The notes: generated from the sequence alone by a model not told the origin. Positions 27,369-44,220 are shown, counted from the stretch's first letter. The stretch: 47,013 bases of DNA from Arthrobacter sp. (GCA_035692345.1 DASSIA010000078.1:1-47013); one strand, 5' to 3'. Program-made: numbers and translations.

Positions 27369-27384
27369 GGGACTTTCTACCCTT
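27369..27384 (+). promoter_or_regulatory. DosR/OsdR-like box upstream of acsA
   Basis: GGGACTTTCTACCCTT; ATG starts 34 nt after the last base of the box. Confidence 0.7.
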
Positions 27385-27417: not shown

Positions 27418-29229
27418 ATGACCGCAGGAACCAGACGAACTGCGGGCCGGCACCGGATCGCCAAGGACATCCACAGCTTTCCCGTCCGGCCCAACCTGTC
27501 CGACTACGAAGCCGTGTGCGCGGCGTTCACGTGGGACGACGCGCGCCGGGCTCTTTCCGGGCTGCCCGGCGGGGGGCTCAACATCGCCCACGAGGCGGTG
27601 GACCGCCATGCGACAGGGCCGCGCGGCCACCATCAGGCCTTGCGGTTCATCCGCGCCGACGGCTCAGCCCACGCCATCACGTATGCCGAACTATCCGAGC
27701 GGAGCAACCGGTTCGCGGCCGTCCTGACACAGCTGGGCATCGGCCGCGGGGACCGGGTCTTCTCACTGACCGGCCGTAGCCCGGAACTCTACGTCGCGGT
27801 GCTGGGCACGCTGAAGAACGCCAGCGTCTTTTGCCCTTTGTTCTCCGCCTTCGGACCGGAACCGGTCAGGCAACGCCTCCGTCTGGGAGCCGGCCGCGCA
27901 CTGGTCACTACCCGCGCCCTATACCGACGCAAGGTCCGGCAGATCCGCGACGAGCTGCCGGAGCTGAAGTTCATCCTCCTGATCGACGCCGACGGCGAGC
28001 CTGACCCCGGGACCCTGGACCTGGCCGGACTCATGATGAGTGTCCCGGGTGACGGATCCGCCGCCGTGACCCACGGCGAGGACATGGCTCTACTGCATTT
28101 CACGAGCGGGACCACGGGCACCCCTAAGGGTGCCATCCACGTTCATGAGGCGGTGACCGCCCATTACGCGACAGGCCGGTTCGCGCTGGACCTGCACCCT
28201 GACGATGTCTACTGGTGCACCGCGGACCCCGGCTGGGTCACGGGGACGTCGTACGGGATCATTGCCCCGCTGGTCCACGGCGTCACCACGATCGTGGATG
28301 AGGAAGAGATGGACGCCGAACGCTGGTACCGGATCCTTGCTGAGCAGCGGGTCACGGTGTGGTACACGGCGCCGACGGCCCTCCGGATGCTGATGAAGGC
28401 AGGGGCGGAAGCTGCCGTCGGCCACGATCTTTCTGCGCTGCGGTTCGTAGCCAGCGTGGGTGAGCCCCTCAACCCCGAAGTGGTGGTGTGGGGCCAGGAC
28501 GCCTTTGGCCAGCCCGTGCACGATAACTGGTGGCAGACCGAAACCGGTGGCATCATGATCGCCAACTTCGTTGCCACCGAAATCCGGCCCGGCTCGATGG
28601 GACGGCCGCTGCCCGGTGTGGAAGCTTCCTTGGTGGCACGGGACCCGGACGGGAATCCTGTGCTTCGCGGCGGCGAACCTGTCCTGGTGACGGACCCGGA
28701 CACCATGGGCGAACTGGCGCTGCGCACCGGCTGGCCGTCAATGTTCAGGGGCTATCTCAACGCCCCGGACCGCTACCGCCGCTGCTTTGCCGGCGGCTGG
28801 TACCTCACAGGCGACCTGGCGACGAGGGACGCCGACGGATATTACTGGTTTGTTGGCCGTGGCGATGACGTCATCAAATCCTCCGGTCACCTGATTGGCC
28901 CCTTCGAGGTTGAGAGTTCGCTGATGGAGCACCCTGCAGTCGCCCAGGCAGGCGTTATTGGGGTCCCCGATCCGGTGGCCGGAGAGGTGGTCAAGGCGTT
29001 CGTTGAATTGCGCAACGGCTGGGAGCCCTCCGAAGAGCTCCGCCTGGACATCATCGGGTTTGCCCGCAAACAGCTGGGCGCCGCCGTGGCTCCCCGCATG
29101 GTGGATTTCATCACCTCCCTGCCAAAGACCCGCAGCGGCAAGATCCTCCGGCGGCTCCTGAAGGCGCGCGAGTTGGGCCTGCCCGAGGGAGACACGTCCA
29201 CGGTCGAGACCACGCCGGAGCCACAATGA
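27418..29229 (+). CDS. acsA: Acetate--CoA ligase-like AMP-dependent acyl synthetase
   Basis: [62 protein letters not shown]. Confidence 0.9.
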
Positions 29230-30224
29230 GCGGCCAGCCAGGGCCGATCAGCCCGGATCAGGCGGCGAAGGCCACGCACCTGCTGTTCCAGATGCTTCGC
29301 GTCCGGCGGCTGGAGGAGCGATGTGTCGAGCTTTACAGCGAAGCCAGGATCCGGGGGTTCCTGCACGTCTATATCGGCGAGGAAGCCGTCGCGGCGGGCG
29401 TCCTGGACACTCTGGAGCCGGAGGACGCGGTCGTTGCAACGTACCGCGAACACGGCCACGCGCTGCTGCGCGGAGTTCCGGCCGGCGCCATCCTCGCGGA
29501 GATGTATGGCTATGTGCAGGGCTGCTGCCGGGGACGGGGCGGCTCGATGCACCTTTTCGACGCCGGCACCCGGTTTTTCGGCGGAAATGCCATTGTTGCC
29601 GGCGGATTGCCCCTTGCCGTGGGCCTGGCCCTGGCGGATAAGATGGCGGGCCGCTCCCGGGTCACTGCCTGCTTCTTCGGAGAAGGGGCCGTAGCCGAGG
29701 GGGAATTCCATGAGAGCCTGAACCTGGCGGCACTGTGGCAACTGCCGGTGCTCTTCTGCTGCGAGAACAACCTGTACGCCATGGGCACTGCCTTGGGCCG
29801 CTCAGAGTCGCAGACCGATATCGCGCTGAAGGCCGCCGGCTACGAGGTGGCGGCCTGGGCAGTGGACGGGATGGACGTGCTCGCCGTGCACGAGGCCGCC
29901 CGCCGGGCCGTGGATGCGGTCCGGTCCGGCGGCGGACCGCACTTCCTGGAACTGCGCACATATCGCTTCCGCCCGCATTCCATGTTTGACCCCGAGCGCT
30001 ACCGGGAGAAGTCCGAGGTGGCCCGTTGGCAGGAACGGGACCCGATCAACCTGCTCCGCAATGCCCTCCAGGACGGCGGCCTGCTGACCACAGAGCAATG
30101 GTCAGACCTGGAACGCGCCGCCGACGCCGAGGTGGCCGAGGCCATCGAATACGCTGAGGCCGGCACCCCCGAACCCGTCGAAGAACTCACCCGGTTTGTC
30201 TACAGCGAGCGGGGCCCGGCGTGA
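29226..30224 (+). CDS. pdhA: 2-oxoacid (pyruvate/acetoin-type) dehydrogenase E1 alpha
   Basis: [29 protein letters not shown] motif GEGA...[11 protein letters not shown]. Confidence 0.9.
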
Positions 30225-31201
30225 AGACCACCTACCGGGAAGCCGTCCGGGCCTCGATCAGGGATGCGATGATCCGTGACGAACGGGTATTCCTCATGGG
30301 CGAGGACGTGGGCGCCTACGGGGGCTGCTACGCCGTCAGCCTTGGACTGTTCGAGGAATTCGGGCCGGAACGCATCCGCGACACCCCGCTCTCCGAATCA
30401 GGCTTTGTGGGCGCCGGAATCGGCGCCGCGCTTGGCGGCATGCGGCCCATTGTCGAAATCATGACCGTTAACTTCAGCCTGCTGGCCCTGGACCAGATCG
30501 TCAACAACGCCGCCACACTCCTGCACATGTCCGGCGGCCAATTCAATGTACCCCTGGTGATCCGGATGACAACCGGGGCGGGACGTCAGCTGGGCGCCCA
30601 GCATTCCCACAGTCTGGAGGGCTGGTACGCCCACATTCCCGGCCTGCGCATTCTTGCCCCGGCGACGCTGGCGGACGCACGCGGCATGCTCTGGACGGCA
30701 TTGCAGGACCCGGACCCGGTGCTCATCTTCGAACACGGCACGCTCTACAACATGGCGGGCGAGCTCGCTGACGACGCCGGGCCCGTGGACATTGACTCGG
30801 GCGCCGTCCGGCGGCAGGGAACGGACGTCTCCCTGATCACCTATGGCGGCACCCTCCCGGCAACACTCGACGCCGCCGCTCAGCTGGCAGGCGACGGCAT
30901 CAACGCCGAGGTGCTGGATCTGCGTACCCTGCGCCCGCTCGATGATGCAGCGATCCTGGCCACGATGGAACGGACCCACCGGGCCGTTGTGGTGGATGAA
31001 GGGTGGCGAAGCGGCGGCATCTCGGCAGAAATCAGCGCCCGCATCACGGAAGCCGCTTTCTACGATCTGGACGCCCCGGTTGCGCGCGTCTGCAGTGCCG
31101 AAGTTCCGATGCCCTATGCAAAGCATCTGGAGCTCGCTGCGCTTCCGACCGCCGAGCGGATCGTCAAAGCCGCACGGGAGGTGACAGGGGCAGGTGGGTG
31201 A
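30221..31201 (+). CDS. pdhB: 2-oxoacid dehydrogenase E1 beta
   Basis: [41 protein letters not shown]. Confidence 0.92.
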
Positions 31202-32633
31202 TTTCCGGATGCCGTCGCTGGGGGCAGACATGGACCACGGCAAGATGGTGGAGTGGCTGGTGAAGCCGGGCGACTACGTTCACCGCGGGGATGTTGTGGC
31301 CGTCGTCGACACTGATAAGACAGTCATGGACGTGGAGACCTTTGAAGAGGGTGTTGTTGCCGAGCTGCTCGTGGACATCGGCACCACCGTTCCTATCGGT
31401 ACACCCTTGGCCCGGATCACTGCGACCCCCGGCGAGGCGCCCGGAGCCACCGGAAGCCCCCCGCCCGCCCGACCACCGGAGTCGGCCGCTGAGCCGCCCC
31501 GCGAAGGTCCTGCAGGCGATGAACCCGCCGCGCCCCTCTCGCCGCCGGTGCGGCATCTGGCCCACCGCCTTGGAGTTGATCCCGGCTCCGTCCACGGCAC
31601 CGGAAAGCACGGCGCCGTGACCCGCGCGGACGTGGAACATGCCGCAGCCACCGGCGCAGACACAGGCGCAGCCACCGGCGGAGAGGCGGCCGGCACGGTC
31701 CGGACGCCCGCGGCAGGACCAGTGGGTCTGCCGGCCGCGGCCAGGGTGCGATCATCGCCCCGCGCACGGCGGCTGGCAGCCGAACACGGTGTGGATTTGG
31801 GGAAGGTGACGGGAACGGGGCCCGGCGGCGCGGTCACCGAGACAGACGTGCGCCAGGCCGCGGGTGGCGCCGCGCCCGCCGCGCCGCCAGCAGCGCCGGG
31901 AGCACTGCCGCAGGAGTTGTCCGCGGAGGCCGTGCTGTCCGAACCCCGGTCCGCGGATTCCCTCCAGCGTGAGGCGAAACTGCGCAAGGCCGTGGGGGCG
32001 TTGATGTCCCGCTCCAAGAAGTCCATCCCGCACTATTACCTCAGCACAACCCTGGACATGAGCGCGGCGGTGGCCTGGCTGCAGGCGGTGAATCTGCATC
32101 GTCCCGTGGCCTCCCGGCTGGTGGCCTCCGCCCTGTTGCTGAAGGCAACCGCAGTCGCCGCCAAATCAGTGCCCGACGTCAACGGTTTTTATGTCGACGG
32201 CGGGTTCCGGGCCAGCGAGTCGGTTCATCTCGGGATAGCGGTGTCGCTCCGCCGGGGCGGCATAGTCGCGCCCGCCATTCATAACGCGGACATGCTCAGC
32301 CTGGACGCACTGATGGAACGGCTGCGGGATCTGGTGAGCCGCGCGCGGGCAGGAAGGTTGCAGCGGGCGGAGATGGCGGATCCCACCATCACTGTCACGA
32401 ATCTGGGCGACTTGGGCGTGGAAAGCGTTTTTGGCGTGATCTATCCCCCGCAGGTCGCCATGGTCGGGTTGGGACGGCTGATGGAACAGCCGTGGGCGCA
32501 TGATGGAATGCTCGGTGCCCGCCACGTGGTAATTGCCACCCTCTCCGCGGACCACAGGGTCAGCGATGGACTGCGCGGTGCACGTTTCCTGACCCGGCTG
32601 GACGAGCTTCTGCAAAAACCGGAGGAACTATGA
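31194..32633 (+). CDS. pdhC: Dihydrolipoamide acyltransferase E2 (one lipoyl domain, two PSBD)
   Basis: MPSLG...VDTDKT (lipoyl Lys); two GTGxxGAVT PSBD repeats; IPHYY, TNLG, DHRVSDG catalytic motif. Confidence 0.9.
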
Positions 32634-32872
32634 ACGAAGAGAAGGCCCGGGCCGCAGTACATCAGGCCATTGGACAGGTCGCGCCGGACCTCCAGCCGGA
32701 GGACCTCAGCGGGGATGCCAGGCTGCGGCAGGACCTGGAGCTGGACTCGCTGGACTTCCTGCGGCTCGTGGAAGTGATCGACAACGCCACCGGTGTGGAT
32801 ATTCCGGAACGGGACTATCCCGAGGTGGCTACCGTTCAGGGCCTGATTGCCTACGTCGCCGCCCACTGCTGA
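32630..32872 (+). CDS. Acyl carrier protein
   Basis: 80 aa, acidic, LRQDLELDSLD phosphopantetheine motif, GVDIPE, ATV; ATGA overlap with E2 and a GGAGG RBS. Confidence 0.92.
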   Translation: MNEEKARAAVHQAIGQVAPDLQPEDLSGDARLRQDLELDSLDFLRLVEVIDNATGVDIPERDYPEVATVQGLIAYVAAHC

Positions 32873-33057: not shown

Positions 33058-33073
33058 GAGACGTTCGGCCCTA
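33058..33073 (+). promoter_or_regulatory. DosR/OsdR-like box
   Basis: GAGACGTTCGGCCCTA; GAAGCT at +22; ATG at +34. Confidence 0.72.
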
Positions 33074-33106
33074 GCGGCGGCCCCGCAGGCGGCGGAAGCT
33101 TGAACT

Positions 33107-33577
33107 ATGAATGCCACCAATCCAGCACCAAGAATCGTCCACACTGCTGCGCAGTCCACCGCCGTTGTCAGGGAAACGATCCCGATGGCCGCCATGTCGG
33201 AGTTTTTCGGCCGGGCATTTGGCACCGTGATGGCTGCCGCCGGGTCCCAGGGCATCCCCGTAGCCGGTCCTCCTTTTGCCCTCTACCGGGGGATGCCTAC
33301 CGAGACCGTCGACGTCGAGGCCGGTTTCCCCGTCGCGGCCGGATTCAGGGAAACCGAAGCAGTGGCTAGCGGCACCCTGCCTGAAGCCGACGCCTTTGAA
33401 GCGATCCATGTGGGATCGTATGACACCCTTGGGCAAACGTACGGTGTCATCCAGGAGCGGATGCGGGCCGAGGGCCGCACCCCCTCGGACACCATGTGGG
33501 AGTTCTACCTTAGCGATCCTGCCACCGAACCCGACCCGACCAAGTGGCAGACCCGGGTGGTCTGGCCCTATTCCTGA
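33107..33577 (+). CDS. GyrI-like small-molecule-binding domain protein
   Basis: GPPFALY, VEAGFPV, HVGSYDTL, WEFYLSDP, TRVVWP. Confidence 0.87.
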   Translation: MNATNPAPRIVHTAAQSTAVVRETIPMAAMSEFFGRAFGTVMAAAGSQGIPVAGPPFALYRGMPTETVDVEAGFPVAAGFRETEAVASGTLPEADAFEAIHVGSYDTLGQTYGVIQERMRAEGRTPSDTMWEFYLSDPATEPDPTKWQTRVVWPYS

Positions 33578-34041
33578 TGAACGCTGCGGCGGGAAAGCCG
33601 GACCGGGTCATCCTGGCGATAGTGTCCGCAATAGCCCTGTTGGTGGTTGTGTCGCTCGCCGTCGTGCTCACCCGCGGGCAGCCGGAAGTCCTGGACGAAT
33701 CGACACCGCAGGGAGTCGTGCAGCGCTACAGCAGCGCTGTGATCGACGGTGATCGGGCCACCGCCACTTCCTACCTCACAGAGGCGGCGACGACCTCATG
33801 CCGCAGCTACCCGGACAGCGGACCGCCGCCCAGCAGGGTTGTCCTGATATCCGCCACTGAGAGCGGTACGTCCGCCGTCGTCAAGGTATCCGTGATCGCC
33901 GCAGCTTCGGACGGCTTGTTCGGACCCTCCGAGTACGAGACCGAGGCCCGGTTCTCACTCGTGAAAACCAACGGCAAGTGGCTGGTCGACCAGGCCCCGT
34001 ACCAGCTCCTGACATGCACCGGATCCGCGGTGAAACAATGA
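33577..34041 (+). CDS. Membrane-anchored hypothetical protein (NTF2-like extracytoplasmic domain suspected)
   Basis: N-terminal TM; TPQGVVQRY...A...YL helix and LVKTNGKWLV terminal strand; two Cys; TGATG coupling to the upstream gene. Confidence 0.75.
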   Translation: MNAAAGKPDRVILAIVSAIALLVVVSLAVVLTRGQPEVLDESTPQGVVQRYSSAVIDGDRATATSYLTEAATTSCRSYPDSGPPPSRVVLISATESGTSAVVKVSVIAAASDGLFGPSEYETEARFSLVKTNGKWLVDQAPYQLLTCTGSAVKQ

Positions 34042-35738
34042 TCTCCCAAGCCCCCGCGACAGGTCCCGGGGCGCGGTCCATCCAACTCACCCTCCGCCGC
34101 ATGATCCTCTACGCACTGTTGTTTGCCCTGGTGATCATCACCGCTGTGGGACTCAGCGGACTTTTGGAGCGCCTGTTCAGTACCGGTGCCCTGCTGGCCT
34201 CAGGCGACGTGGCCGGGCTTGCGCGTTCCTTGGCCTTCACCCTGATCGGCGGGCCGCTCACCGCAGTGCTGTGGTGGATGGTCTGGAGGCGGCTTGACGA
34301 CGCTCCGGAACGGACCGCACCGGCATGGGCGGTGTATCTCAGCGCCGTTTACGCTGTATCACTGATCACGGCGGTGACGGCCCTGCTGACCACGGCGTCA
34401 TCCTTCATCGGCCGGCCGGAACCACAGTGGTACGGGCCGTTGTCCGCGGGACTGGTGTGGGCGGGAATCTGGATCTGGCATCACTGGGTCTGGCGGCACC
34501 CAGTCAAGCATCCACCCGGACTGGAGGACGTCCCCGCGATCACGGGCTGGGTCTTCGGACTGGCGGTGGCCGTGGTGTCCGCCATTTCGGCCCTTGGCGG
34601 CCTGCTCGACGTCGCCGTCCGGGGGAACGCCAGCCTGATCGCGGGAGCACCCTGGTGGCAGCCCATCGTCCGGGCCCTGGTCTGGGCCGTTGGCGGAGCC
34701 GGCGTCTGGTGGTGGCACTGGTTCCGGCGCGGCGGACGGTCGGTGGAGACAACTCTTGGGGACGTGGCCTTGGTTGGAGCAGGTATCTTCGCCGCCGGCG
34801 CAACGGCGCTCACCGGCGCGGGAGTGGTGGTTTTTGTTCTGCTGCGGACGGCATTGGACCGGGGTGGGGCAATGAGTGAACTGCTGGCTCCCCTGGGAAC
34901 CGCCCTGGCCTCTGCAGCTGTGGGCGCCCTGGTATGGCGGTACCACCGCGTCATCGGGACGCGCCGCTCGTTGGCCACGCGACGCGCAGGCCGGCTCGTG
35001 ACGTCCGGGGTTGCCCTGGCGGCCGCCGCATCCGGGATTGGCGTTGTTATCAATGCAACCCTTGCCACGGCCGTATCTCCCCTGGCCGGTGGAGGCGTGC
35101 GCACGCTGCTGTTAGGGGGCGTCAGCTCCCTCCTCGTCGGAGGATGCACCTGGTGGTTTGCCTGGAACCCGCTGCAGCAACCCGGCAGTGCGGACGCGAT
35201 CCCCCCGGGCCGGCGGATCTACCTGGTGGTGTTTTTCGGCATCAGTGCAGTGGTGGCGCTCATTGCCCTCCTGGTGATCGGATACCGGCTCTTCGAGTTC
35301 CTTCTGGGCGGGAGTTCCGGGGCCGGGCTACTGGACCGGGTCCGGGCACCGCTTGGTCTCCTGACAGCTGCAGGCCTCGTAGCTGCCTATCATTTCGCCC
35401 TGTGGCGCCGGGAACGTGCCCGCCCGCCTGGGGCGTCGGCAGGCGCACATGCCATAGACCGGGTCACCTTGGTGGCCCCCTACGACACCGCAGCATTGTC
35501 CAAGGCGGTGAGGGACGCTACAGGCGCCAAAGTCGCGGTCTGGAGAAGGGCAGAATCAGGGCACCAAGCGCTGCCGGCCGGCGCTGCCGTCCCTGTCGAA
35601 CAGGCGCTGGTTGACCGGGTGCTCACTGCACTTGCAGATGTGACCGCCCGGAACGTGTTGGTGGTGATCGGTCCGGGGACCGGTCAGCCGGCACCCTTCG
35701 AGGTGATCCCCGTGGACATGGACGGGCGTAGCCGCTGA
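34038..35738 (+). CDS. Polytopic membrane protein (DUF5671-like repeats)
   Basis: About 12 TM; repeated (RR)xYL...VSL / WxWHW units; ATGA coupling. Confidence 0.75.
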   Translation: MISQAPATGPGARSIQLTLRRMILYALLFALVIITAVGLSGLLERLFSTGALLASGDVAGLARSLAFTLIGGPLTAVLWWMVWRRLDDAPERTAPAWAVYLSAVYAVSLITAVTALLTTASSFIGRPEPQWYGPLSAGLVWAGIWIWHHWVWRHPVKHPPGLEDVPAITGWVFGLAVAVVSAISALGGLLDVAVRGNASLIAGAPWWQPIVRALVWAVGGAGVWWWHWFRRGGRSVETTLGDVALVGAGIFAAGATALTGAGVVVFVLLRTALDRGGAMSELLAPLGTALASAAVGALVWRYHRVIGTRRSLATRRAGRLVTSGVALAAAASGIGVVINATLATAVSPLAGGGVRTLLLGGVSSLLVGGCTWWFAWNPLQQPGSADAIPPGRRIYLVVFFGISAVVALIALLVIGYRLFEFLLGGSSGAGLLDRVRAPLGLLTAAGLVAAYHFALWRRERARPPGASAGAHAIDRVTLVAPYDTAALSKAVRDATGAKVAVWRRAESGHQALPAGAAVPVEQALVDRVLTALADVTARNVLVVIGPGTGQPAPFEVIPVDMDGRSR

Positions 35739-35782
35739 TCGCGCCGAAGCACGGCGTTGTACAACTGAAAAAGGTGATGATG

Positions 35783-36181
35783 ATGGGTGGGGTAGTACAT
35801 TTCGAAATTCCGGCCGATGACGAGGACCGCGCGAGGGCTTTCTACCAGTCGGCGTTTGGCTGGACGTTCCAGGTGTTGCCGGACATGGAATACAGCCTGG
35901 CCATGACCACTCCGCCTCAAGCCGACGGCGTGACGGCCCGGCCGGGATCCATCAATGGTGGCATCTTCCGGCGCGGTAACGTCCTTTCGGCGCCTGTGCT
36001 GACCATCGACGTCGAGGACATCGACGCGGCACTCGCCCGGATCGGGCGGCTGGGCGGGCAGACGGTTCGGGAAAGGATGGAGGTTCCCGGTACCGGCTGG
36101 AATGCCTACTTCCGGGACACCGAGGGAAACGTGGTGGGACTCTGGCAGAGCGCAGAACCGGTAGCCCGGCCTGAGGCATGA
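35783..36181 (+). CDS. VOC (glyoxalase/bleomycin resistance) family protein
   Basis: VVHFEIPADD, FYQSAFGW, INGG, FRDTEGNVVGLW; start could be any of 35774-35783. Confidence 0.9.
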   Translation: MGGVVHFEIPADDEDRARAFYQSAFGWTFQVLPDMEYSLAMTTPPQADGVTARPGSINGGIFRRGNVLSAPVLTIDVEDIDAALARIGRLGGQTVRERMEVPGTGWNAYFRDTEGNVVGLWQSAEPVARPEA

Positions 36182-37632
36182 GCATTAGCCGGACGCCCTT
36201 CAGACTGCTGGCGGCAGTCGTATTTGCCCTGCTGCTTGGCGGTGGCCAGGCAGCAAACGCCGCCACGCCGGTCGGCGTCGTTGTTGAGGACCGGGCGGGA
36301 GTACTCGACCGGAACACCCTGGACCCGGCCCTGCGTGCCATGGAGTTCCATTCCCCCACCAAAGTTGCTGTCTACACCTACAACGGCAGCACCACCGACA
36401 ATCTCAATGAAGAAGTCCTCAGGTTTGCCCGCGCGGAGCACCCGGACTGGATCAGCCCCGACGGCCAAAAATGGGCCGACGGGCTTTTCATCTTCGCCCT
36501 CGATCCGGTGGGCCGCCACGTTGGCACCTATATGGGTGAGGACCGGAAAGTTTCACCGGCACAACGCGATGACATCCAAAACGCTTCCAAGGAACTCCTT
36601 CGGGACGCCCAGTGGACGGACGGGGTCATCGCCGGGGTCCGTCGTGGTGCCGAACTGATCAACCAGCCCTGGTACCAGTCGGCGGCCTTCCTGGTCACCG
36701 CCTGGGTGACAGGAGTGGCAGCCGCGCTGGGGGCGGCGGCCTGGCTGACAGTGCGCGCGGTCACCCGCGCCACCAGCAGAAAGGAACTCAAACGCGGTGA
36801 CACGAGCTATGCCCATGTCAGTGCTGACCTGGATGTCACGGAACTGAATGCCGGCACCATTCCTGAGTCCTCTTCCTACGGCAGCAGGATCCTGGAAAAG
36901 TACCGGACCTTCCGTGACCGGTACGACGCCGCCACCAGGCTTTCGAACCGGGTCCATGCCTTGACGCCGAAGGCGTTGGGCCGGCGATCGAACCTCAAAC
37001 TTGTCCGGGAGTACGCCGACGCCGCCGACGAACTCGATGCCCTCGATGACGTCATTGCCGACAGCAACGCGCTGCTGAACCGCTCAATTACCTGGGCCAC
37101 GGCCTGGGACCGCCAGCTATCACCGTTCCGGAGCGACCTCGCCGGACTTGAACAACTGCTCAGCAAACGACATGGACAAGGTGACTCCGCCACTGCGGCA
37201 GCCTTGAGATCATTCCGCGACCAAAGCCTGCACGAGATAGAGGGATGGACCGCCGGGCTTGCGGATGGGACCACCGCACCGGAGGCGGCTTTGGATCTCC
37301 TTCGGGGCGCCCGCACACGGCTGTCCCTCTTGTTGAGAGACCATGCCCGCACGGTTATCGAAGGTTTTGCCGCCACCGACCATGAGGCCAGGCTCATGGG
37401 CAAGGAGATGGAAAAAGCACAGGAGGGTGCGGACCGCCACTACCTGCGGCGCCACGAACCCAGCATCCTCGGAACGATCTACCCCCGCTACTACTTCTTC
37501 TCGGTTCCCGCCTTCAACTCCGCCATGAACACCGGAGTGGGCAGCGTCAGCTCCGCACGCGGCGGCGGCACCACCGGTTATGGTGCGAGCGGGGGCAGCT
37601 TCTCCGGCTCGGGCAGTTCTTCGGGCTTCTAG
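36178..37632 (+). CDS. Exported TPM-like / DUF5129-like membrane protein with Gly/Ser tail
   Basis: Signal peptide, VEDRAGVLD, internal TM, helical region, C-terminal GYGASGGSFSGSGSSSGF; ATGA coupling. Confidence 0.75.
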   Translation: MSISRTPFRLLAAVVFALLLGGGQAANAATPVGVVVEDRAGVLDRNTLDPALRAMEFHSPTKVAVYTYNGSTTDNLNEEVLRFARAEHPDWISPDGQKWADGLFIFALDPVGRHVGTYMGEDRKVSPAQRDDIQNASKELLRDAQWTDGVIAGVRRGAELINQPWYQSAAFLVTAWVTGVAAALGAAAWLTVRAVTRATSRKELKRGDTSYAHVSADLDVTELNAGTIPESSSYGSRILEKYRTFRDRYDAATRLSNRVHALTPKALGRRSNLKLVREYADAADELDALDDVIADSNALLNRSITWATAWDRQLSPFRSDLAGLEQLLSKRHGQGDSATAAALRSFRDQSLHEIEGWTAGLADGTTAPEAALDLLRGARTRLSLLLRDHARTVIEGFAATDHEARLMGKEMEKAQEGADRHYLRRHEPSILGTIYPRYYFFSVPAFNSAMNTGVGSVSSARGGGTTGYGASGGSFSGSGSSSGF

Positions 37633-37648
37633 ATGACTTTCGGCCCTA
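37633..37648 (+). promoter_or_regulatory. DosR/OsdR-like box
   Basis: ATGACTTTCGGCCCTA; CAGGCT at +22; upstream of a usp gene. Confidence 0.72.
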
Positions 37649-37765
37649 CAACTTTCCCGGTCCACGTCGCAGGCTGAAGAGGCAACGAGATCCCGGGCAG
37701 GCCGCCAGCCGGCCCGTTGTCCGGTCTTGATCCGCAGTTACACCCTTATCGCAGAAAGGCCCGCC

Positions 37766-38632
37766 GTGAGATCCTCCAACCCTATAGCCGTCGCCACCAA
37801 TGATTCCGCCCAGAGCCAAGCGGCCGTGCAGTGGGCGGCGCAACGGGCCGCGCGCGCGCACCTGCCCCTGGTGATCCTTCACGTGGTGGATGACCGTTGG
37901 ACGGCCGAGCCCGTCGCCCTGACCGGAATGCTGCTGGAGAAGGGCGCTGAACTGCTGGAAGCCGCTGCCGGACGCGTGCGCGGCACGGTTCCGGTGGAGA
38001 TCAGCACCAAAGTCCTGGAAGGGGGCGTGGCCGGCGCGCTGCGCAAGTTCTCAACCAAGGCCTCAATGCTGGTGGTGGGTTCAGGTGCTGCCCACCGGGG
38101 CGGCGCGCTCACGGACCGGGCCCTGCAAATAGCTGCCGCAGCGAAGTGTCCCGTTGCGGTGATTGGCGCGGACCACCTTGAGGGGCGGCGCGGAATCCTG
38201 GTGGGGGTGGATGGTTCGGAAGAATCAACCCAGGCTGTTGCCTTTGCCGCTGCCGAGGCGGACCGGGAGGGCCAGGAGCTGACGGTGCTGTATGCGTTCA
38301 GCGGCCCCAACCGTTGGATCAGGGCCGGTCTTCCGTCCAGCAGCCTTGCCGAGCTGGTAGTCCAGGAGGAACAGATTGTCCTTTCCGAGACGGTGGCCGG
38401 CCTCCGCGAGGACTACCCCGATCTTGCGGTGCATCCAGTCCTTGAAACCGACATGGAACCGGCGGAGGCCCTGGTTAAGGCTGCGGCCAACGCCACAATG
38501 CTTGTGGTGGGCAGCCGGGGCCGGGGCGGCTTCAAACGGCTGCTGCTCGGGTCCACAGCCCACGCGGTGCTCACGGAGTTACCGTGCCCCACCGTCATAA
38601 CGCCTATCCGGCGCATAAAGGACAAAGGATAG
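37766..38632 (+). CDS. Universal stress protein (two USP domains)
   Basis: ILVGVDGSEES, LVVGSRGRGGFKRLLLGS, PCP; GAAAGG RBS before GTG. Confidence 0.92.
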   Translation: MRSSNPIAVATNDSAQSQAAVQWAAQRAARAHLPLVILHVVDDRWTAEPVALTGMLLEKGAELLEAAAGRVRGTVPVEISTKVLEGGVAGALRKFSTKASMLVVGSGAAHRGGALTDRALQIAAAAKCPVAVIGADHLEGRRGILVGVDGSEESTQAVAFAAAEADREGQELTVLYAFSGPNRWIRAGLPSSSLAELVVQEEQIVLSETVAGLREDYPDLAVHPVLETDMEPAEALVKAAANATMLVVGSRGRGGFKRLLLGSTAHAVLTELPCPTVITPIRRIKDKG

Positions 38633-38767
38633 GGCCGCCGGATGCAAGCCCGGAAACGGACGTCGAAACCAAACTCGATGCCGTGATCCCGGGCCAACCC
38701 CTGTCTCGCACCGTGGGAGCACGGCAGTAATGTAAAGAACATTTGGTCCGCCTGGCGCCCACGGAAG

Positions 38768-40669
38768 TCAGAGGCCCGGATGTTTTGCCCGGGGCGGCCC
38801 TGCTTCCCCGGGCGCATCCCGGCCACGTCCGCCGTGCAGGGCACGAAGGGCGTTCAGGATGGTGGCCAGATCGACAGCCTCCTGCAGCAGGGCACCTGCA
38901 ACGGCCGGTATATAGCCAAAAACCGCTGCAACCATCAGGACGATGCTCAGCAGGATGCCGGTCCAGATGCTGGCCAGGGCAATCCTGACCGTACGCCTTC
39001 CGATGTCCACGGCCAGCGCCGCCTTGGACAGGTCATCGAGCATGATGACGACGTCGGCTGACTCGCTCGCCGCGGTTGAGCCCTTTGCCCCCATCGCGAT
39101 CCCTACGTCGGCAGCGGCCAGGACGGGGGCATCGTTCACCCCGTCCCCCACCATCATGACCGGCCGTTCCCGCAGCCCTGCCACGATGGCGACCTTGTCC
39201 CCGGGAAGGCACCCGGACCGGACGCGGGTGATCCCGGCCTGGGAAGCGATCTTCTCGGCCGTGGTCCGGGCGTCCCCGGTCAGCAGCAAAGTCTCCTCAA
39301 TGCCCAGCGCGCGCAGCCCGGCCAGCGTGCTGACCGCGTTGGCGCGGAGCGGATCACTCATGATCAGCGCTCCCACGAACCGTCCGTCAATTCCCACGTA
39401 GACCGCCAGCTGTCCGCCAGCCAACCCGACCTCCTCGAAACCGCTGGCCACGGATCTGACGAAATCGGGCTTGCCAACTGCGACGGAACGGTTGCCGCAA
39501 CGGGCCGTAACGCCTTGGGTCGCGTGTTCGGACGCGTTCGTCCCGCGCACAAGTTCAAGGCCCCGCTGCCGGGCAGCATCAATGACTGCTGCGGCAAGGA
39601 CGTGGGACGAATACTGCTCTGCCGAGGCGGCCAGTTGCAGCAGCTGGTCGGCGGTGATCAGTCCTGCTGCGCCCCGGGAGATCCGGATGCTGTGCAGGCT
39701 GGGCCGGCCGTGGGTGAGCGTGCCCGTCTTGTCGAAAACCGCGGTTCGCACCCGGGCGAGCCTTTCCAGCGTTCCCCCGTTCTTGATGATGATTCCGGCG
39801 TGCGCGGCCCGGCTGGTCCCCGCCAGGAAGGCCACGGGTGCCGCTATGAGGAGCGGACAGGGTGTGGCGACAACAAGGACCTGCGCGAACCGGACCGGTT
39901 CCTGGCTGAAATACCAGCCCGCCCCGGCCAGCAGGAAGGCAAACAGGGTGAAGGGAATTGCATACTTATCGGCGAGGCGGACCACCGGCGGCCGGCTCGA
40001 TGCGGCTTCCTGGACCAAGGCCACGATCCGGCTGTACTGGGAATCTTTGGCCGTGGAGGTGGCCACCATGCGCACGGCGTTTTCGCCGTTGACGGAGCCG
40101 CTGAGCAGTGTCTCGCCTGCCACGTGCTCAACCGGCAGGCTCTCACCCGTCAAGGTGGATTCATCAAAACTCCCGGACGCGGAAAGAAGGCGTCCGTCCA
40201 CGGGAACCACCTCCGCGGGCTTGATCAGCAGCGTGTCCCCGGGCCTGACCTCGCCGGCCGGGATGTCCTCCGCGGGTGAACCGGGCAGTTCGCGGTGAGC
40301 CCGCTCCGGGACCCGCTCCAGCAGTGACCGGAGCTCCTTGGTCGCGCGTCCCCGGGAGATCTCTTCCAGGGCTTCGCCGCCGGCAAGCATCAGCACGATG
40401 ATCAGGGCCGCCACGTACTCGCCTACGGCAACGGTCGCGGCAATGGCAGTCACGGCCAGCAGGTCAATCCCCCACCGGCCGTTACGCAGTTCCCTCAGCA
40501 TGGAGCCGGTCCGGACCACCGCGACCAGCAGCGCGAAGATGCTTGCCGTCCACTGAGCCGCCGATGACTGCCCCCCAGCCAGGAGCAGTGCAACGGCCAT
40601 CCCCGCCGCGACGGCACCGGCGACCAGGGGGAACCGGATCATCCAGGTCCGTAACGTTGTCAGGGTCAT
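38768..40669 (-). CDS. Heavy-metal P-type ATPase, P1B-5-like
   Basis: LTGESLP, TPCPL, FDKTGTLT, GDGVNDAP, QEAVD in the last TM; no N-terminal CxxC domain. Confidence 0.92.
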   Translation of the reverse strand: MTLTTLRTWMIRFPLVAGAVAAGMAVALLLAGGQSSAAQWTASIFALLVAVVRTGSMLRELRNGRWGIDLLAVTAIAATVAVGEYVAALIIVLMLAGGEALEEISRGRATKELRSLLERVPERAHRELPGSPAEDIPAGEVRPGDTLLIKPAEVVPVDGRLLSASGSFDESTLTGESLPVEHVAGETLLSGSVNGENAVRMVATSTAKDSQYSRIVALVQEAASSRPPVVRLADKYAIPFTLFAFLLAGAGWYFSQEPVRFAQVLVVATPCPLLIAAPVAFLAGTSRAAHAGIIIKNGGTLERLARVRTAVFDKTGTLTHGRPSLHSIRISRGAAGLITADQLLQLAASAEQYSSHVLAAAVIDAARQRGLELVRGTNASEHATQGVTARCGNRSVAVGKPDFVRSVASGFEEVGLAGGQLAVYVGIDGRFVGALIMSDPLRANAVSTLAGLRALGIEETLLLTGDARTTAEKIASQAGITRVRSGCLPGDKVAIVAGLRERPVMMVGDGVNDAPVLAAADVGIAMGAKGSTAASESADVVIMLDDLSKAALAVDIGRRTVRIALASIWTGILLSIVLMVAAVFGYIPAVAGALLQEAVDLATILNALRALHGGRGRDAPGEAGPPRAKHPGL

Positions 40670-40679
40670 GATGTTGACC

Positions 40680-42215
40680 CTACGGCGGTCCGGGGGGCCC
40701 ATCCAGGGGGCCTTCGGACCACCCGCCGGGAGGCTGGGGTCTGAAAGGTGGGGCGGGCGGCGGCCCCACATCGGCGTCACCCGGTCCCCTCCGAAGGTCC
40801 TCGCTGTCCGTTGGGCCCTGGTCCAGCCGGAACGGTGGGTACTCATCCCGCATTAGGGCCACATACGTGATGACCCGGTAGATCCACCGGTTAAAACCCA
40901 GCAGCAGGTCAAACAGCGGGCGCTGATAGCGGCCTGTGAACAGCAGCAACACCCCGGCGACAAGCACCAGGAAACCGAACAACGAGAACCCGGTGCCGGT
41001 CTCATACCTGAGGCCCGGGACCACGGAGTCGTTCCAACGGACGGTGTCGGTGCCGGTCAGTGCCCCGATGACAATCAGCTGGGGAAGCGCCAGGAGCCAC
41101 CATTTAACAAGAACAAGTCCCCGGGACAGCCGCTCCGGATACTCAACATCGAAATCTGCCGGATAGTCGGTCCTGGCGAGCGTAAACGGCGGATATTTGT
41201 CCGTTCCCAACGCTGCGTAGGCATAAAAGGCCACTCGCCAGTTCCAGCGCAGGACGCCAACATTGAACGTGAAAAGGGAACGGGGATACCGGCCTGTGAA
41301 AAGGATGGCGAAGCCGGCGACGACCGTGACCACAACGAAGGCGAACCAGAGAAAGAACAGCACAACGAAATGCGGTATCGCCAGGAACCACTTGACCAGC
41401 CACAGCCAGCGGGAGAGCCCGGGGTCGAGTTCGCCCCGAATCCGTGCCGGGAACGGCGCTGGCCCGGCCGCGGCAGGAGGCGGCTGCTGCGGCAGGGATG
41501 AACCGGCAGGCACCGGGACAACGGGCGCCCCCGCTCCCTGCCCCGCCCGGCCCAGGCCATGGGCACCAAAGGCCAGCAGCGGAACCCCGATCACCAGCAG
41601 GATTGATCCGGCGGCCAGGAGCCCGGCAGCTATCGGGCCAAAAAGCTCTGACCGGAATCCGGCCTTCAGGTCGGCGCGAATCCCAGGGCTGGCATCGGCG
41701 TTCATCACAACGACGGTCCAGTTCCCGGATTGGATCTTCCAGTCCAGTTTTTGCTCCCCTGCTCCCGAAACTGACGCCGCCCAAAATTGCTGCGCCGACG
41801 GTGGTTGCGGTTTCCCTGCTCCTGACGATTCCCGATACTCCACGTGGAATGGCCGGAAAGTCACATGCAGCAGCTCAGAGTAGCCGGTCCCGGACAGGTA
41901 GCGGTCAACATCTGCCCGGGGCGCTATGCCGACAAAGATTTCCTTGCCGGGATCAGCCGGCTTCGCAAGAATCCGGATGCTGCCCACATCAAAGGGCAAG
42001 GGCCCCGGGGCGGTGCGGTCACGCATGGTGTCTGAACCGGCGAAAATAATCGCCGAGGAATCAACATCGAACCGTTCACTCGGTGAGGTGAGGTAGCCGC
42101 CGTCGTTCTGGAGTGAAGTGGCCCATGAGGCACCTATGCCGCCAACCAGCAATCCGACACCCAGCATCGAGAAGACAATACCGAGAATGAGCATGATGAT
42201 GGACCGGGCCCGCAT
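40680..42215 (-). CDS. DUF4389-like membrane protein
   Basis: Two repeats of LSRxLxLVKWxLAxP...LFTGRYxRxLF...YPPF; N-terminal extracytoplasmic domain between TM helices. Confidence 0.8.
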   Translation of the reverse strand: MRARSIIMLILGIVFSMLGVGLLVGGIGASWATSLQNDGGYLTSPSERFDVDSSAIIFAGSDTMRDRTAPGPLPFDVGSIRILAKPADPGKEIFVGIAPRADVDRYLSGTGYSELLHVTFRPFHVEYRESSGAGKPQPPSAQQFWAASVSGAGEQKLDWKIQSGNWTVVVMNADASPGIRADLKAGFRSELFGPIAAGLLAAGSILLVIGVPLLAFGAHGLGRAGQGAGAPVVPVPAGSSLPQQPPPAAAGPAPFPARIRGELDPGLSRWLWLVKWFLAIPHFVVLFFLWFAFVVVTVVAGFAILFTGRYPRSLFTFNVGVLRWNWRVAFYAYAALGTDKYPPFTLARTDYPADFDVEYPERLSRGLVLVKWWLLALPQLIVIGALTGTDTVRWNDSVVPGLRYETGTGFSLFGFLVLVAGVLLLFTGRYQRPLFDLLLGFNRWIYRVITYVALMRDEYPPFRLDQGPTDSEDLRRGPGDADVGPPPAPPFRPQPPGGWSEGPLDGPPGPP

Positions 42216-42304
42216 GGATTACTCCCGTCGTCGAATTCCGGTGGACCAGCCGGCGCCAGCCGCTGCCGGGTCCTCCCAGCCTCCGTCACGGTGGCCGCAA
42301 CCGA

Positions 42305-42320
42305 TAGGGCCATAGGTCAC
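42305..42320 (-). promoter_or_regulatory. DosR/OsdR-like box
   Basis: Minus strand GTGACCTATGGCCCTA; GAGGCT at +22. Confidence 0.72.
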
Positions 42321-42342
42321 TGCGGACGCTGCCGGGACCGGA

Positions 42343-43185
42343 TCATGATGCCTGCCCGGACGCAGGACGGGTGACAATAGTGGGGCACGGCAACCCACTC
42401 AGCACCTTTTCGGCTATCGATCCGATGGGTTTGCGAAGCCCGCCACGTCCCCGGCAACCAATGACCAGAAGGCTGGCCTGAAGGGCGGAACGGATAAGGA
42501 CCTCAGCCGGAGAACCGTTCGGTTCCAGCGTCTCGTGAACGGTCAATCCGGGATGGGACTCCCGTATGCTGCGGGCGGCTCCTGCGATCAGCGACAGGGC
42601 ATCAGGCTCCCCGCTGGGGACGGGCCCGCCGGGCGGTACCGCTGAGGCCGCATGCAGTATCGTCAGCACCTCGCCGATCCGCTGTGCTTCCGCAGCCGCC
42701 AGCTGAAGAGCCACCACCGAGTCCTCCGACCCGTCAATGCCAGCCACCACGCCGCTGCGGTCCGCCGCCGTGCGCGCAGGAATGACGGCAACGGGACACC
42801 GGCACAGGACCGCAGCCTGGAAGCCGACCGATCCTGATCCTTCCCCGCGCCTGTCCGATGAACGGTCCGAACCAAGAACCACCATCTCGGCTCCGTCCGA
42901 GAGACGGCTCAATACCGGCGCCGGTTCGCCGGGCTGCCAGCCGGTAATGACCTGCAACCCGGGATGACGGGCGGTCAGCCGGCCACGTTCCTGAACCAGC
43001 AGTGTTTGGGCCCGGGCCACGGCTTCGGCGTACTGCGCCGGTGTCCTGTAGTACCAGGATTCGGGAACTACCCGCACCAGGTGCAGGCGCAGACCCAACC
43101 CATCCGCCCTCTGCGCAGCCCAATCGGCGGCGCGGCGGCCCTGGCTGGACGCATCGGCACCTGCCAGGACTTCGATCGCTTTCAT
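42343..43185 (-). CDS. Universal stress protein (two USP domains)
   Basis: VLAGADAS, VVAGIDGSEDS, LLVIGCRGRGG, PCP; GAAAGGA RBS before ATG 43185. Confidence 0.88.
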   Translation of the reverse strand: MKAIEVLAGADASSQGRRAADWAAQRADGLGLRLHLVRVVPESWYYRTPAQYAEAVARAQTLLVQERGRLTARHPGLQVITGWQPGEPAPVLSRLSDGAEMVVLGSDRSSDRRGEGSGSVGFQAAVLCRCPVAVIPARTAADRSGVVAGIDGSEDSVVALQLAAAEAQRIGEVLTILHAASAVPPGGPVPSGEPDALSLIAGAARSIRESHPGLTVHETLEPNGSPAEVLIRSALQASLLVIGCRGRGGLRKPIGSIAEKVLSGLPCPTIVTRPASGQAS

Positions 43186-43239
43186 CCCCCGTCCTTTCAT
43201 CGGTCCATTCTCCAGTTTCGCCCTCATACACCGCCCGGC

Positions 43240-43281
43240 CAGTGCCGGAAGGCCCGACGGCGGGCGGGGCTTTCGTCCCTG
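43240..43281. promoter_or_regulatory. Pair of divergent DosR/OsdR-like boxes
   Basis: Minus strand GGGCCTTCCGGCACTG (43240-43255) and plus strand GGGGCTTTCGTCCCTG (43266-43281), between divergent genes. Confidence 0.6.
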
Positions 43282-43341
43282 TTGCCCGTCGGTCCAACGG
43301 TATGTACTTGAGGGACACCGCGTTTCCAGTAAAGGATGGCC

Positions 43342-43983
43342 ATGACCAACATCACGATTCTCGGCAGCGGGCATATGGCCCGCGCCCTCGCCCTGACGAT
43401 GCTGCGGGCCAACAACCCGGTACAGATCCTTGGCCGCGACGGCACCAAAACACGGGACCTCGTCGAAAGCCTGGGACCGGGCGCAACGGGCGGACTCGCC
43501 GGAGCGCCCATCACCGGCGCCATAGTATTCCTGGCCATCCCGCACAAAGAGGTGCATGCGGCCATCCTGGAAAGCGGCGACCACATGGATGGCCGGGTGG
43601 TGGTGGACATCAGCAACCCTGTCGATGTCAGCACCTTCGATCGGCTGACCACCGATCCCGGTACCTCTGCGGCCGAAGAAACCGCCCGCTTGCTGGAGGG
43701 ACGCGCGGATGTGGTGAAGGCGTTCAACACCACGTTCCCGGCCACACTGGAAGCCGGAAAAGTCGCCGGACAACACCTTGACGTGTTCATCGCCGGCGAC
43801 TCCGAGGAGGCCAAAGAGAAAGTCAGCGCGGTCACGGCAGCTGCCGGGCTGCGGCCGATTGACGTGGGACCGCTCCGGCGTGCGCGCGAACTCGAAGGAA
43901 TCATGCTGGTTGTTATGGGATTGCAGGTCAGCCCTGAGCACGAGCATTTCAACTGGGACACCGCCCTCAGGATTCTTCCGTAG
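43342..43983 (+). CDS. NADP oxidoreductase, F420-dependent reductase-like family
   Basis: ILGSGHMA, VVDISNP, SAAEE, VVKAFNT, IAGD, DVGPL. Confidence 0.88.
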   Translation: MTNITILGSGHMARALALTMLRANNPVQILGRDGTKTRDLVESLGPGATGGLAGAPITGAIVFLAIPHKEVHAAILESGDHMDGRVVVDISNPVDVSTFDRLTTDPGTSAAEETARLLEGRADVVKAFNTTFPATLEAGKVAGQHLDVFIAGDSEEAKEKVSAVTAAAGLRPIDVGPLRRARELEGIMLVVMGLQVSPEHEHFNWDTALRILP

Positions 43984-44014
43984 GGGTTGGCTCTCGCGGC
44001 GCCACGCTGAGGAA

Positions 44015-44062
44015 GCATCCGCCGCCTCCCGCATCTGCCGCCTCCTGCGTCGGCAGCCTCCC
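44015..44062. repeat. 3 x 16-nt degenerate tandem repeat
   Basis: GCATCCGCCGCCTCCC / GCATCTGCCGCCTCCT / GCGTCGGCAGCCTCCC. Confidence 0.6.
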
Positions 44063-44187: not shown

Positions 44188-44220
44188 GGCCCCCGCTCAA
44201 TCCTGGGGGAAGGTACTGCC

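What the first reader, a model, noticed from the sequence alone, without database searches (positions are those of the whole stretch)
27418..32872. acsA-pdhA-pdhB-pdhC-ACP: a carrier-protein-linked 2-oxoacid dehydrogenase operon without E3
Seen: five genes, all overlapping by 4-8 nt, encode an adenylating acyl ligase, E1 alpha, E1 beta, E2 with intact lipoyl Lys and DHR motif, and a standalone ACP. There is no E3, ketosynthase, NRPS, PPTase or lipoate ligase in the window, and a regulon box sits upstream. Established: ordinary PDH uses CoA and needs E3, with no ACP. Inference: the ACP may replace CoA as E2's acyl acceptor with the ligase acting on acyl-ACP (a CoA-independent pyruvate/acetate route, possibly ATP-yielding in reverse under low oxygen). 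Alternatively, the ligase loads the ACP to feed E2/E1 for acyloin formation. This is the best candidate for an undescribed system here; similar gene clusters probably exist elsewhere, but I know of no biochemical characterisation.
Basis: partly seen in the sequence, partly recalled or inferred. Interest (0 to 1): 0.85.

Follow-up and report, generated by a model that had tools for sequence, protein, structure and literature searches.

The report
Pyruvate dehydrogenase with private acetyl carrier
Five overlapping genes (an acetate-activating ligase, the E1 and E2 parts of a pyruvate dehydrogenase, and a small carrier protein) form a cassette that recurs across many bacterial phyla, often among low-oxygen genes, and it likely passes acetyl groups on its own carrier protein instead of coenzyme A, which would let oxygen-starved cells turn pyruvate into acetate plus ATP and would feed a protein-acetylating enzyme in some lineages.

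Summary
Observation confirmed: five intact genes overlap by 4/4/8/4 nt behind a DevR/OsdR-type box. This is a widespread fixed cassette: the ACP follows E2 in 80 of 80 GTDB loci, its serine is invariant (99 of 99), and about 3.5% of sampled Actinomycetota carry it. 'Without E3' is unremarkable: the host encodes E3, and two loci append one.

Two tests tie the ACP to both enzymes. (1) Cassette E2 ends where a two-residue deletion makes E. coli E2 a trimer (83 of 94; the hydrophobic knob is kept in 30 of 32 ordinary E2s), so its acceptor face is likely open to a protein. (2) A derived ligase-ACP-Pat acetyltransferase module persists without E1/E2, also in a single-contig genome, and ACP-Pat fusions are common.

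Best reading (0.4): E2 loads the ACP from pyruvate and the ligase unloads it to acetate plus ATP under hypoxia. Main rival (0.27): acetyl-ACP is made as an acetyl donor. Nothing biochemical is shown; CoA-binding arginines remain, and most hosts have AckA. My searches found no paper on it. This scan noted the cassette at least nine times before on other DNA, once with the Pat link.

The parts
27369..27383 (+). DevR/OsdR-type operator box, 35 nt upstream of the ligase start
   Evidence: Scores 13.6 bits on a matrix trained on six other island sites; 42 sites score as high in 2.32 Mb, 7 of them in this window. The same 15-mer lies before the ligase in L030 and L031. Resembles OsdR sites listed in PMC5069765. 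A DevR orthologue lies on contig C322.
27418..29229 (+). AMP-forming acetate ligase of the Bacillus subtilis AcsA type; likely acetate:ACP ligase working reversibly
   Evidence: PRK04319 over cut-off; best solved match 9g79, E 5e-166. Pocket residues V274, T275, V347, W372 and catalytic K575 are conserved in 91-92 of 92 aligned ligases.
29226..30224 (+). Pyruvate dehydrogenase E1 alpha
   Evidence: TIGR03182 equivalog over cut-off
30221..31201 (+). Pyruvate dehydrogenase E1 beta
   Evidence: PRK09212 over cut-off
31194..32633 (+). E2 acyltransferase: lipoyl Lys42 (31317-31319), two PSBDs, catalytic Thr402 and His454; ends at Leu479 without the trimer-trimer knob, so predicted trimeric
   Evidence: AlphaFold2 catalytic domain pLDDT 92, TM 0.90 to 9j1w; PMC10849603
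32630..32872 (+). Dedicated acyl carrier protein, phosphopantetheine site Ser40 (32747-32749)
   Evidence: PF00550; DSxD serine in 99 of 99 distinct copies; same ACP clade is fused to or beside Pat-type GNATs elsewhere
33058..45264 (.). Context, not part of the cassette: low-oxygen island with six more boxes, universal stress proteins, a P-type ATPase and a Zn alcohol dehydrogenase just beyond

Best explanation
The cassette is likely a CoA-independent acetyl shuttle, predicted to be switched on by DevR at low oxygen, in which E1 and a predicted trimeric E2 would move the acetyl group of pyruvate onto the cassette's own ACP and the ligase would unload it in reverse to give acetate and ATP. Steps: (1) DevR binds the box (box and regulator shown; binding inferred). 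(2) A host PPTase and lipoyl transferase modify ACP Ser40 and E2 Lys42 (sites and host enzymes shown; modification inferred). (3) E1 decarboxylates pyruvate and acetylates the lipoyl arm; host E3 reoxidises it to NADH (family knowledge; E3 shown in trans). (4) E2, lacking the knob that builds cubes and dodecahedra, exposes its acceptor face and acetylates holo-ACP (truncation shown; acceptor inferred). (5) The ligase converts acetyl-ACP + AMP + PPi to acetate + ATP (pairing with the ACP supported by gene context; direction inferred). A small private carrier could be driven almost fully acetylated by the PDH step without tying up CoA, which would push this uphill reaction. (6) In some lineages a Pat-type GNAT taps acetyl-ACP to acetylate lysines, probably ligase K575.
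For: Fixed linkage: ACP after E2 in 80 of 80 GTDB loci and 8 of 8 plasmid loci opened. Anchored on the ACP instead, a full E2 lies upstream in 13 of 14 genomes. No other neighbour family was found in more than 24 loci, so E2 and the ligase are the only conserved thioester enzymes. E2 tail: 27 residues from the DHR aspartate in 83 of 94; only 1 of 94 has a hydrophobic residue at 28/29, against 30 of 32 controls. Position 27 is E. coli L627, and deleting V628-M629 gives stable trimers (PMC10849603 passages). The E2 catalytic domain has a stem of 1.13 changes per site against 0.54, 0.42 and 0.36 for E1 alpha, E1 beta and ligase. Ligase and ACP persist without E1/E2 in 15 of 80 metagenome loci and in G1064. 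Hypoxia-island markers in 55 of 92 cassette loci against 0 of 40 control loci. Precedents: E1/E2-type proteins loading an ACP (QncNLM as described in PMC6335953); an AMP-forming Acs making ATP (PMC4992975).
Against: No acyl transfer was observed. The arginine matched by my alignment to the CoA-phosphate residue Arg357 of C. thermophilum E2 (PMC8626477) is kept (R385: R or K in 95 of 95), so CoA is not excluded. Actinobacterial E2p is natively trimeric and binds CoA (PMC10415282), so a trimer does not imply an ACP acceptor. 50 of 62 cassette genomes searched also have acetate kinase, so they do not need this route. In the three-gene module the ligase can only be the loader, which favours the forward direction. 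A Pat enzyme silencing the ligase when acetyl-ACP is high suits forward flux better than reverse. The ligase's Arg-to-Leu change at 492 also occurs in two stand-alone sister ligases without a clade ACP, so it is no sign of ACP use. The loop residues that bias Syntrophus Acs1 towards ATP formation cannot be mapped, because this ligase type lacks that loop. The route makes NADH, which is a burden without oxygen.
Confidence: 0.4

Rival explanations
1. Convergent acetyl-donor system: both pyruvate (through E1/E2) and acetate (through the ligase, forward) load the ACP, and acetyl-ACP is the product. It serves as donor or signal for Pat-type lysine acetyltransferases (or as a fatty-acid primer), reporting carbon, redox and energy state at low oxygen.
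For: The same ACP clade is fused to a Pat-type GNAT: 122 aligned fusions keep the serine (122 of 122), the GNAT glutamate (121 of 122) and motif A; closest solved structures are PatZ 9isq/9it0, 4nxy/4u5y and mycobacterial Pat. Ligase-ACP-GNAT without E1/E2 exists, with ligases 67-94% identical to each other and nested inside the cassette ligases. Fusions or separate GNATs lie beside full cassettes in 7 of 80 metagenome loci. Acetyl-ACP as a primer for fatty acid synthesis is in the search listing of PMC8666670 (listing only).
Against: A Pat-type GNAT lies near only 8 of 102 five-gene loci, and no GNAT family was found among the 38 window ORFs scanned. The three-gene module is derived, not ancestral. 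A whole E1/E2 set is costly for a signal. The own genome's Pat-type protein (C160) is unlinked.
Confidence: 0.27
2. Ordinary chemistry: a second, low-oxygen PDH and an acetyl-CoA synthetase both make acetyl-CoA, using host E3. The ACP is a structural or regulatory partner, or is acetylated only as a side reaction.
For: All catalytic motifs are canonical and basic residues at the CoA site are kept in E2 and ligase. E3 is available in 48 of 50 genomes. The nearest sister ligases stand alone. Trimeric CoA-using E2s exist.
Against: Leaves unexplained the invariant serine, the ACP's constant position, its retention with the ligase after E1/E2 loss and its fusion to a GNAT. An AcpS-type PPTase gene lies beside the ACP in L086 and L096 (opposite strand, two related genomes).
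Confidence: 0.2
3. Acyloin or aldehyde formation, or supply of a starter unit to a secondary pathway: the ligase loads the ACP, and E2/E1 run backwards or hand the unit to a synthase in trans.
For: QncNLM and SclQ1-4 use related parts to supply an NRPS. Two E2 positions near the acyl pocket are small (V412, A452).
Against: No synthase or tailoring family recurs among the 87 commonest neighbour clusters scanned. The ligase pocket is acetate-type.
Confidence: 0.06
4. The ACP is a private octanoyl carrier for lipoylating the cassette's E2, loaded by the ligase.
For: A lipoate-protein ligase follows the ACP in L021.
Against: That is 1 of 102 loci. The tryptophan that limits Acs to short acids (role recalled) is kept in 92 of 92. 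The ACP persists with the ligase where there is no clade E2 to lipoylate.
Confidence: 0.04

Closest known systems
Pyruvate dehydrogenase complex with heterotetrameric E1 (mitochondrial/alphaproteobacterial type, TIGR03182; nearest sister here a Chloroflexota housekeeping PDH, L145)
   Same: E1 alpha/beta pass the family cut-offs; E2 has lipoyl, PSBD and catalytic domains with intact DHR and the E2 fold (TM 0.90 to 9j1w).
   Different: E2 forms its own clade (100/100), falls below all E2 cut-offs and lacks the C-terminal knob; an ACP stands where lpd usually does; a ligase leads the operon.
QncN/QncL/QncM (quinocarcin) and SclQ1-4 (scleric acid)
   Same: ThDP enzyme, lipoyl domain and acyltransferase domain load a stand-alone ACP (as described in passages of PMC6335953).
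   Different: Those transfer a glycolyl unit from a ketose phosphate to an NRPS inside a biosynthetic cluster. Here E1 is pyruvate-type, there is an acetate ligase, and no synthase is linked.
Bacillus subtilis AcsA with AcuA; Acs with Pat (E. coli PatZ, Streptomyces lividans PatA, mycobacterial Pat)
   Same: Ligase is the AcsA type (9g79 best match) with the acetylatable lysine; the linked GNATs are Pat-type. Acetylation control of AcsA is described in PMC11255334 (abstract read).
   Different: Known pairs use acetyl-CoA. Here an ACP lies between ligase and GNAT or is the GNAT's N-terminal domain.
[quoted passage not shown]
   Same: Shows that an AMP-forming Acs can make ATP in vivo (PMC4992975 passages; preprint 10.64898/2026.07.06.736832, parts 1-2 of 4).
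   Different: Uses CoA, belongs to the long Acs type with a CoA-binding loop that this ligase lacks, and works in a strict anaerobe with high PPi.
Natively trimeric actinobacterial E2p (AceF)
   Same: Loss of trimer-trimer contact by a C-terminal change.
   Different: AceF has a three-residue insertion and uses CoA (PMC10415282 passages); cassette E2 is two residues short instead.

Membership tests
Pyruvate dehydrogenase complex (heterotetrameric E1) | E1 alpha and beta of the pyruvate type | tested here: met
   TIGR03182 and PRK09212 over cut-off
Pyruvate dehydrogenase complex (heterotetrameric E1) | E2 with lipoyl lysine, PSBD and catalytic Thr/His-Asp | tested here: met
   K42, T402, H454 in the window; H454 in 95 of 95 and D458 in 90 of 95
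Pyruvate dehydrogenase complex (heterotetrameric E1) | E3 available | tested here: met
   In trans: own contig C120 and 48 of 50 genomes; in cis in L080 and L099
Pyruvate dehydrogenase complex (heterotetrameric E1) | C-terminal hydrophobic knob for 24- or 60-mer cores | tested here: not met
   Absent in 93 of 94 cassette E2s, present in 30 of 32 controls
Pyruvate dehydrogenase complex (heterotetrameric E1) | CoA is the acetyl acceptor | not testable with these tools
   CoA-site arginine kept; needs kinetics
AMP-forming acetate--CoA ligase, AcsA type (PRK04319) | Family score, acetate pocket and catalytic lysine | tested here: met
   918 bits against 729; V274, T275, V347, W372, K575 (residue roles recalled from Salmonella Acs)
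AMP-forming acetate--CoA ligase, AcsA type (PRK04319) | CoA rather than a carrier protein as thiol acceptor | tested here: inconclusive
   F142 and basic residues 170/172/550 kept; gene context points to the ACP
QncNLM-type carrier-loading E1/E2 systems | ThDP enzyme + lipoyl acyltransferase + stand-alone ACP | tested here: met
QncNLM-type carrier-loading E1/E2 systems | Lies in a biosynthetic cluster with an NRPS acceptor and uses a ketose donor | tested here: not met
   No synthase among recurrent neighbours; E1 is pyruvate-type
Acyl carrier protein | Conserved serine at the start of helix II | tested here: met
   99 of 99; four-helix model in the fusion
Acyl carrier protein | Carries phosphopantetheine in vivo | not testable with these tools
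   Host PPTases present; AcpS gene adjacent in 2 of 102 loci
DevR/OsdR regulon | Operator box upstream and a DevR orthologue in the genome | tested here: met
   binding and induction not tested

The most novel reading that the evidence does not exclude
Acetyl-ACP is a second acetyl currency in bacteria, separate from acetyl-CoA. A mobile cassette in roughly 3% of species couples pyruvate oxidation to ATP synthesis from AMP and pyrophosphate through an open trimeric E2 and an ACP-specific ligase, and Pat acetyltransferases with their own ACP domain draw on the same pool to acetylate proteins as cells enter dormancy.
Probability: 0.3. Interest if true: 0.9.

Novelty: new variant of a known kind. 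Interest (0 to 1): 0.72.

Why it matters
If the ACP is the acceptor, the textbook link between pyruvate dehydrogenase and CoA has a common exception in primary metabolism. How aerobes such as soil actinobacteria keep making ATP when oxygen runs out is an open question, and this cassette gives a five-protein system that can be purified and tested in both directions. The ACP-Pat fusions would be lysine acetyltransferases with a tethered, protein-bound donor. Thousands of genomes annotate these genes as plain pdhABC and acsA, so metabolic models may assign them the wrong reaction. Even under the ordinary reading, the clade offers a natural, predicted trimeric E2.

Tried and rejected
Expression: no RNA holder was listed. 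E2-ACP 'fusions' among longer proteins (for example P0001, P0002, P0003, P0006) lose the E2 frame before the DHR motif, so they are frameshift artefacts and not fusion evidence. Ligase Arg-to-Leu at 492: rejected as an ACP signature, since stand-alone sisters share it. E2 motif changes L[SA][AG]DH and DHRx[ST]DG: rejected, since the sister E2 in L145 has them with a normal tail. 'Cassette replaces Pta-AckA': rejected (50 of 62 cassette genomes have ackA, against 11 of 15 same-genus genomes without the cassette). 'E3-independent': rejected. Catalytic-bias residues of Syntrophus Acs1 could not be mapped. The AlphaFold2 model of the natural ACP-GNAT fusion (pLDDT 84.6, pTM 0.64, low-confidence linker) shows two folded domains but no docking information. 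No sigma-70-type promoter was found upstream. Paper searches for the cassette: searches returned 0 papers; some searches returned listings, none describing it by title or abstract start. The original actinobacterial trimer paper was not held.
Full report
1. Observation. The ligase passes PRK04319, E1 alpha passes TIGR03182 and E1 beta passes PRK09212. E2 has a lipoyl domain, two PSBDs and a catalytic domain but passes no NCBIfam E2 cut-off; the last gene is a PF00550 carrier protein. The window is contig C78 of a 60%-complete genome whose closest named matches are Arthrobacter/Pseudarthrobacter records. E3, two PPTases and two LipB/LplA-family genes lie on other contigs.

2. Distribution. A close E1 alpha occurs in 15 of 36 same-genus genomes (14 above 80% identity, one broken copy at 68%) and 2 of 24 genomes of other families. 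On plasmids, 32 records hold E1 alpha and 33 hold the ligase at 58% identity or more; all 8 opened have the five genes, one with E1 alpha and beta fused. An E2-anchored GTDB scan found 617 relatives in 7 of 64 parts (tool estimate about 5800 stretches, which may include non-cassette E2s) and kept the best 80. The ACP follows E2 in 80 of 80; ligase and E1 genes are present in 78 of 80 (L093 lost them, L103 is cut off; L071 has only a stub of E1 beta; L073 has the ligase moved). These 80 were chosen by likeness to the query, and four duplicate genomes fetched earlier. Unbiased draws: a clade ACP in 14 of 400 Actinomycetota, with a full E2 upstream in 13 and all five genes in 12; the full or contig-cut cassette in 3 of 200 Chloroflexota. 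Named hosts span Actinomycetota, Pseudomonadota, Chloroflexota, Thermodesulfobacteriota, Cyanobacteriota, Verrucomicrobiota, Bacteroidota, Acidobacteriota and Myxococcota.

3. Context and control. Neighbours vary: the commonest families are USP (24 of 92 loci of 15 kb or more), a phosphoribosyltransferase (22), CBS (17), Hsp20 (9), PEP synthase (8), V/A-ATPase (6) and group 3b-like hydrogenase (5). Any of 11 markers occurs in 55 of 92 cassette loci and 0 of 40 control loci around other E1 alpha or E3 genes of the same genomes. The marker seeds came from cassette loci and the loci are partly kin, so the contrast is overstated. The box at 27369-27383 scores 13.6 bits on a matrix built from six other island sites; 0.05% of random 230-nt windows reach that, and sites of 10 bits or more lie before the ligase in 12 of 50 actinobacterial and 2 of 40 other loci. 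I picked the training sites with a recalled core, so this is partly circular. The sites resemble OsdR sites in PMC5069765 (passages). A DevR orthologue (E 2e-60 to 3c3w) and a GAF histidine kinase lie on C322 with boxes upstream.

4. E3 is not the point. 48 of 50 cassette genomes have an E3 over cut-off, and in L080 and L099 an E3 gene follows the ACP on the same strand.

5. E2 is altered. Cassette E2s form one clade (100/100) with a Chloroflexota housekeeping E2 as sister (42 cassette and 17 other rows). In fast trees of about 35 cassette rows the stem is 1.13 for the E2 catalytic domain, 0.54 for E1 alpha, 0.42 for E1 beta and 0.36 for the ligase; against crown depth the contrast is weaker (1.07, 0.63, 0.77, about 0.5). 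Counting from the DHR aspartate, 83 of 94 distinct E2s stop after 27 residues, nearly always on leucine; 1 of 94 has a hydrophobic residue at 28 or 29, against 30 of 32 control E2s. Later loci agree: 11 of 14 further complete tails stop at 27, two have polar extensions and one is truncated; in metagenomes 16 of 27 stop at 27 and the rest have polar or alanine extensions. Residue 27 is E. coli L627. PMC10849603 (passages) reports that deleting V628 and M629 yields stable trimers, with L627 docking back into its own groove. In large cores the CoA site faces the inside (PMC8626477 passages), where a protein-bound thiol would have poor access; a trimer removes that barrier. This is an inference. 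Against it: the CoA-phosphate arginine is kept, and trimeric AceF uses CoA. Clade-specific changes include an inserted Arg353, Thr-to-Leu at 352 and Asn-to-Tyr at 417; I could not place them on coordinates.

6. The ligase pairs with the ACP. Its pocket and catalytic lysine are acetate-type (roles recalled from Salmonella Acs). A search for longer proteins holding this ACP gave 28 hits, 3 of them ACP-GNAT fusions. One fusion as query gave 653 hits; the 120 listed cover at least 91% of it, keep the serine, GNAT glutamate and motif A, and match Pat enzymes best. Of 80 metagenome loci found with ACP motifs, 15 have ligase then ACP with no E2 (14 show the GNAT next), 3 have a fusion beside E2, 4 a separate GNAT beside E2, 29 a fusion with no E2 in view (many short), 20 have E2 without GNAT and 9 are other. 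Eight three-gene ligases placed in a tree form one clade (SH-aLRT 100) inside the cassette ligases. G1064, whose contig C1 spans the 4.2-Mb assembly, has ligase-ACP-GNAT, no clade E2 (112 bits against 326-345) and no E1 alpha at E 1e-30. Three fusion-bearing genomes (G832, G992, G1027) do have a clade E2. A ligase and an ACP kept together without E1/E2 are most simply enzyme and substrate.

7. Mechanism. In the five-gene form only two enzymes handle thioesters, and E1 decarboxylation is one-way (family knowledge), so flux would run pyruvate to acetyl-ACP to acetate plus ATP. With recalled textbook values (PDH about -33 kJ/mol; reverse Acs about +6 to +14) the sum is about -20 to -27 kJ/mol. 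ATP-forming Acs has precedent (PMC4992975 passages; preprint 10.64898/2026.07.06.736832, parts 1-2 of 4). I give this 0.4. The donor reading gets 0.27: in the three-gene module the ligase must load, but a GNAT lies near only 8 of 102 five-gene loci. Ordinary CoA chemistry gets 0.2; 50 of 62 cassette genomes searched have acetate kinase (two handles are one genome). The core claim shared by the first two readings, an acetylated private carrier, stands at about 0.67.

8. Known systems and novelty. E1/E2-type proteins loading an ACP are known from QncNLM and SclQ (PMC6335953 passages), inside NRPS clusters. Six searches of PubMed Central and bioRxiv main texts found no description of this cassette. 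Subscription papers and supplementary regulon tables were not searched and may list these genes. It works like a PDH joined to an Acs; it is not a plain member of the large-core PDH family or of the Qnc family. Earlier notes of this scan report the same cassette in at least nine other windows, one with the Pat link and one with a trimmed ligase-Pat-ACP module. My survey preceded and my GNAT result preceded; those notes are not independent support. The E2 knob loss does not appear in the lines of those notes shown to me.

Noticed in passing
P0004, P0016, P0020, P0029-P0147; L229-L283, L309-L316: A large family of ACP-Pat GNAT fusions and a three-gene ligase-ACP-GNAT module, in Burkholderiales (GTDB order of G083) and metagenomes, with no conserved neighbours. 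Worth a study of its own.
   Followed up: partly
L059:7300-14461, L055:14542-14958, L078:14124-15650: V/A-type ATP synthase genes lie next to the cassette in 6 of 92 loci, including actinobacterial ones.
   Followed up: no
L087:11843-16966: A group 3b-like [NiFe]-hydrogenase operon follows the ACP; similar genes in 5 of 92 loci. It could reoxidise the NADH made by the cassette.
   Followed up: no
L225:7544-7861 (-), L226:7535-8167 (-) (G433): One genome has an orphan clade ACP between a CBS gene and a short ORF that looks by eye like an MBOAT acyltransferase fragment, and a second ACP in frame with an E2 remnant.
   Followed up: no
L086:11691-12044 (-), L096:11820-12176 (-): An AcpS-type PPTase gene faces the cassette ACP in two related actinobacterial genomes.
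   Followed up: partly
L093:10001-11232: Only a shortened E2 and the ACP remain; the genome has no clade E1 alpha. Probably a decaying cassette.
   Followed up: partly
L176:2227-4107 (-), L177:8929-10698 (-): Stand-alone sister ligases in two Chloroflexota genomes share the loss of the hinge-loop arginine but have no clade ACP.
   Followed up: yes
window 33058-46865: Low-oxygen island with six more DevR-type boxes, three or more USP genes, a P-type ATPase, DUF4389, Zn-ADH and a flavodoxin. A GyrI-like gene (33107-33577) has its own box.
   Followed up: partly
window 2746-5049 (-): An elongation factor G-like gene (Pfam EFG domains) away from any ribosomal operon in this window.
   Followed up: no
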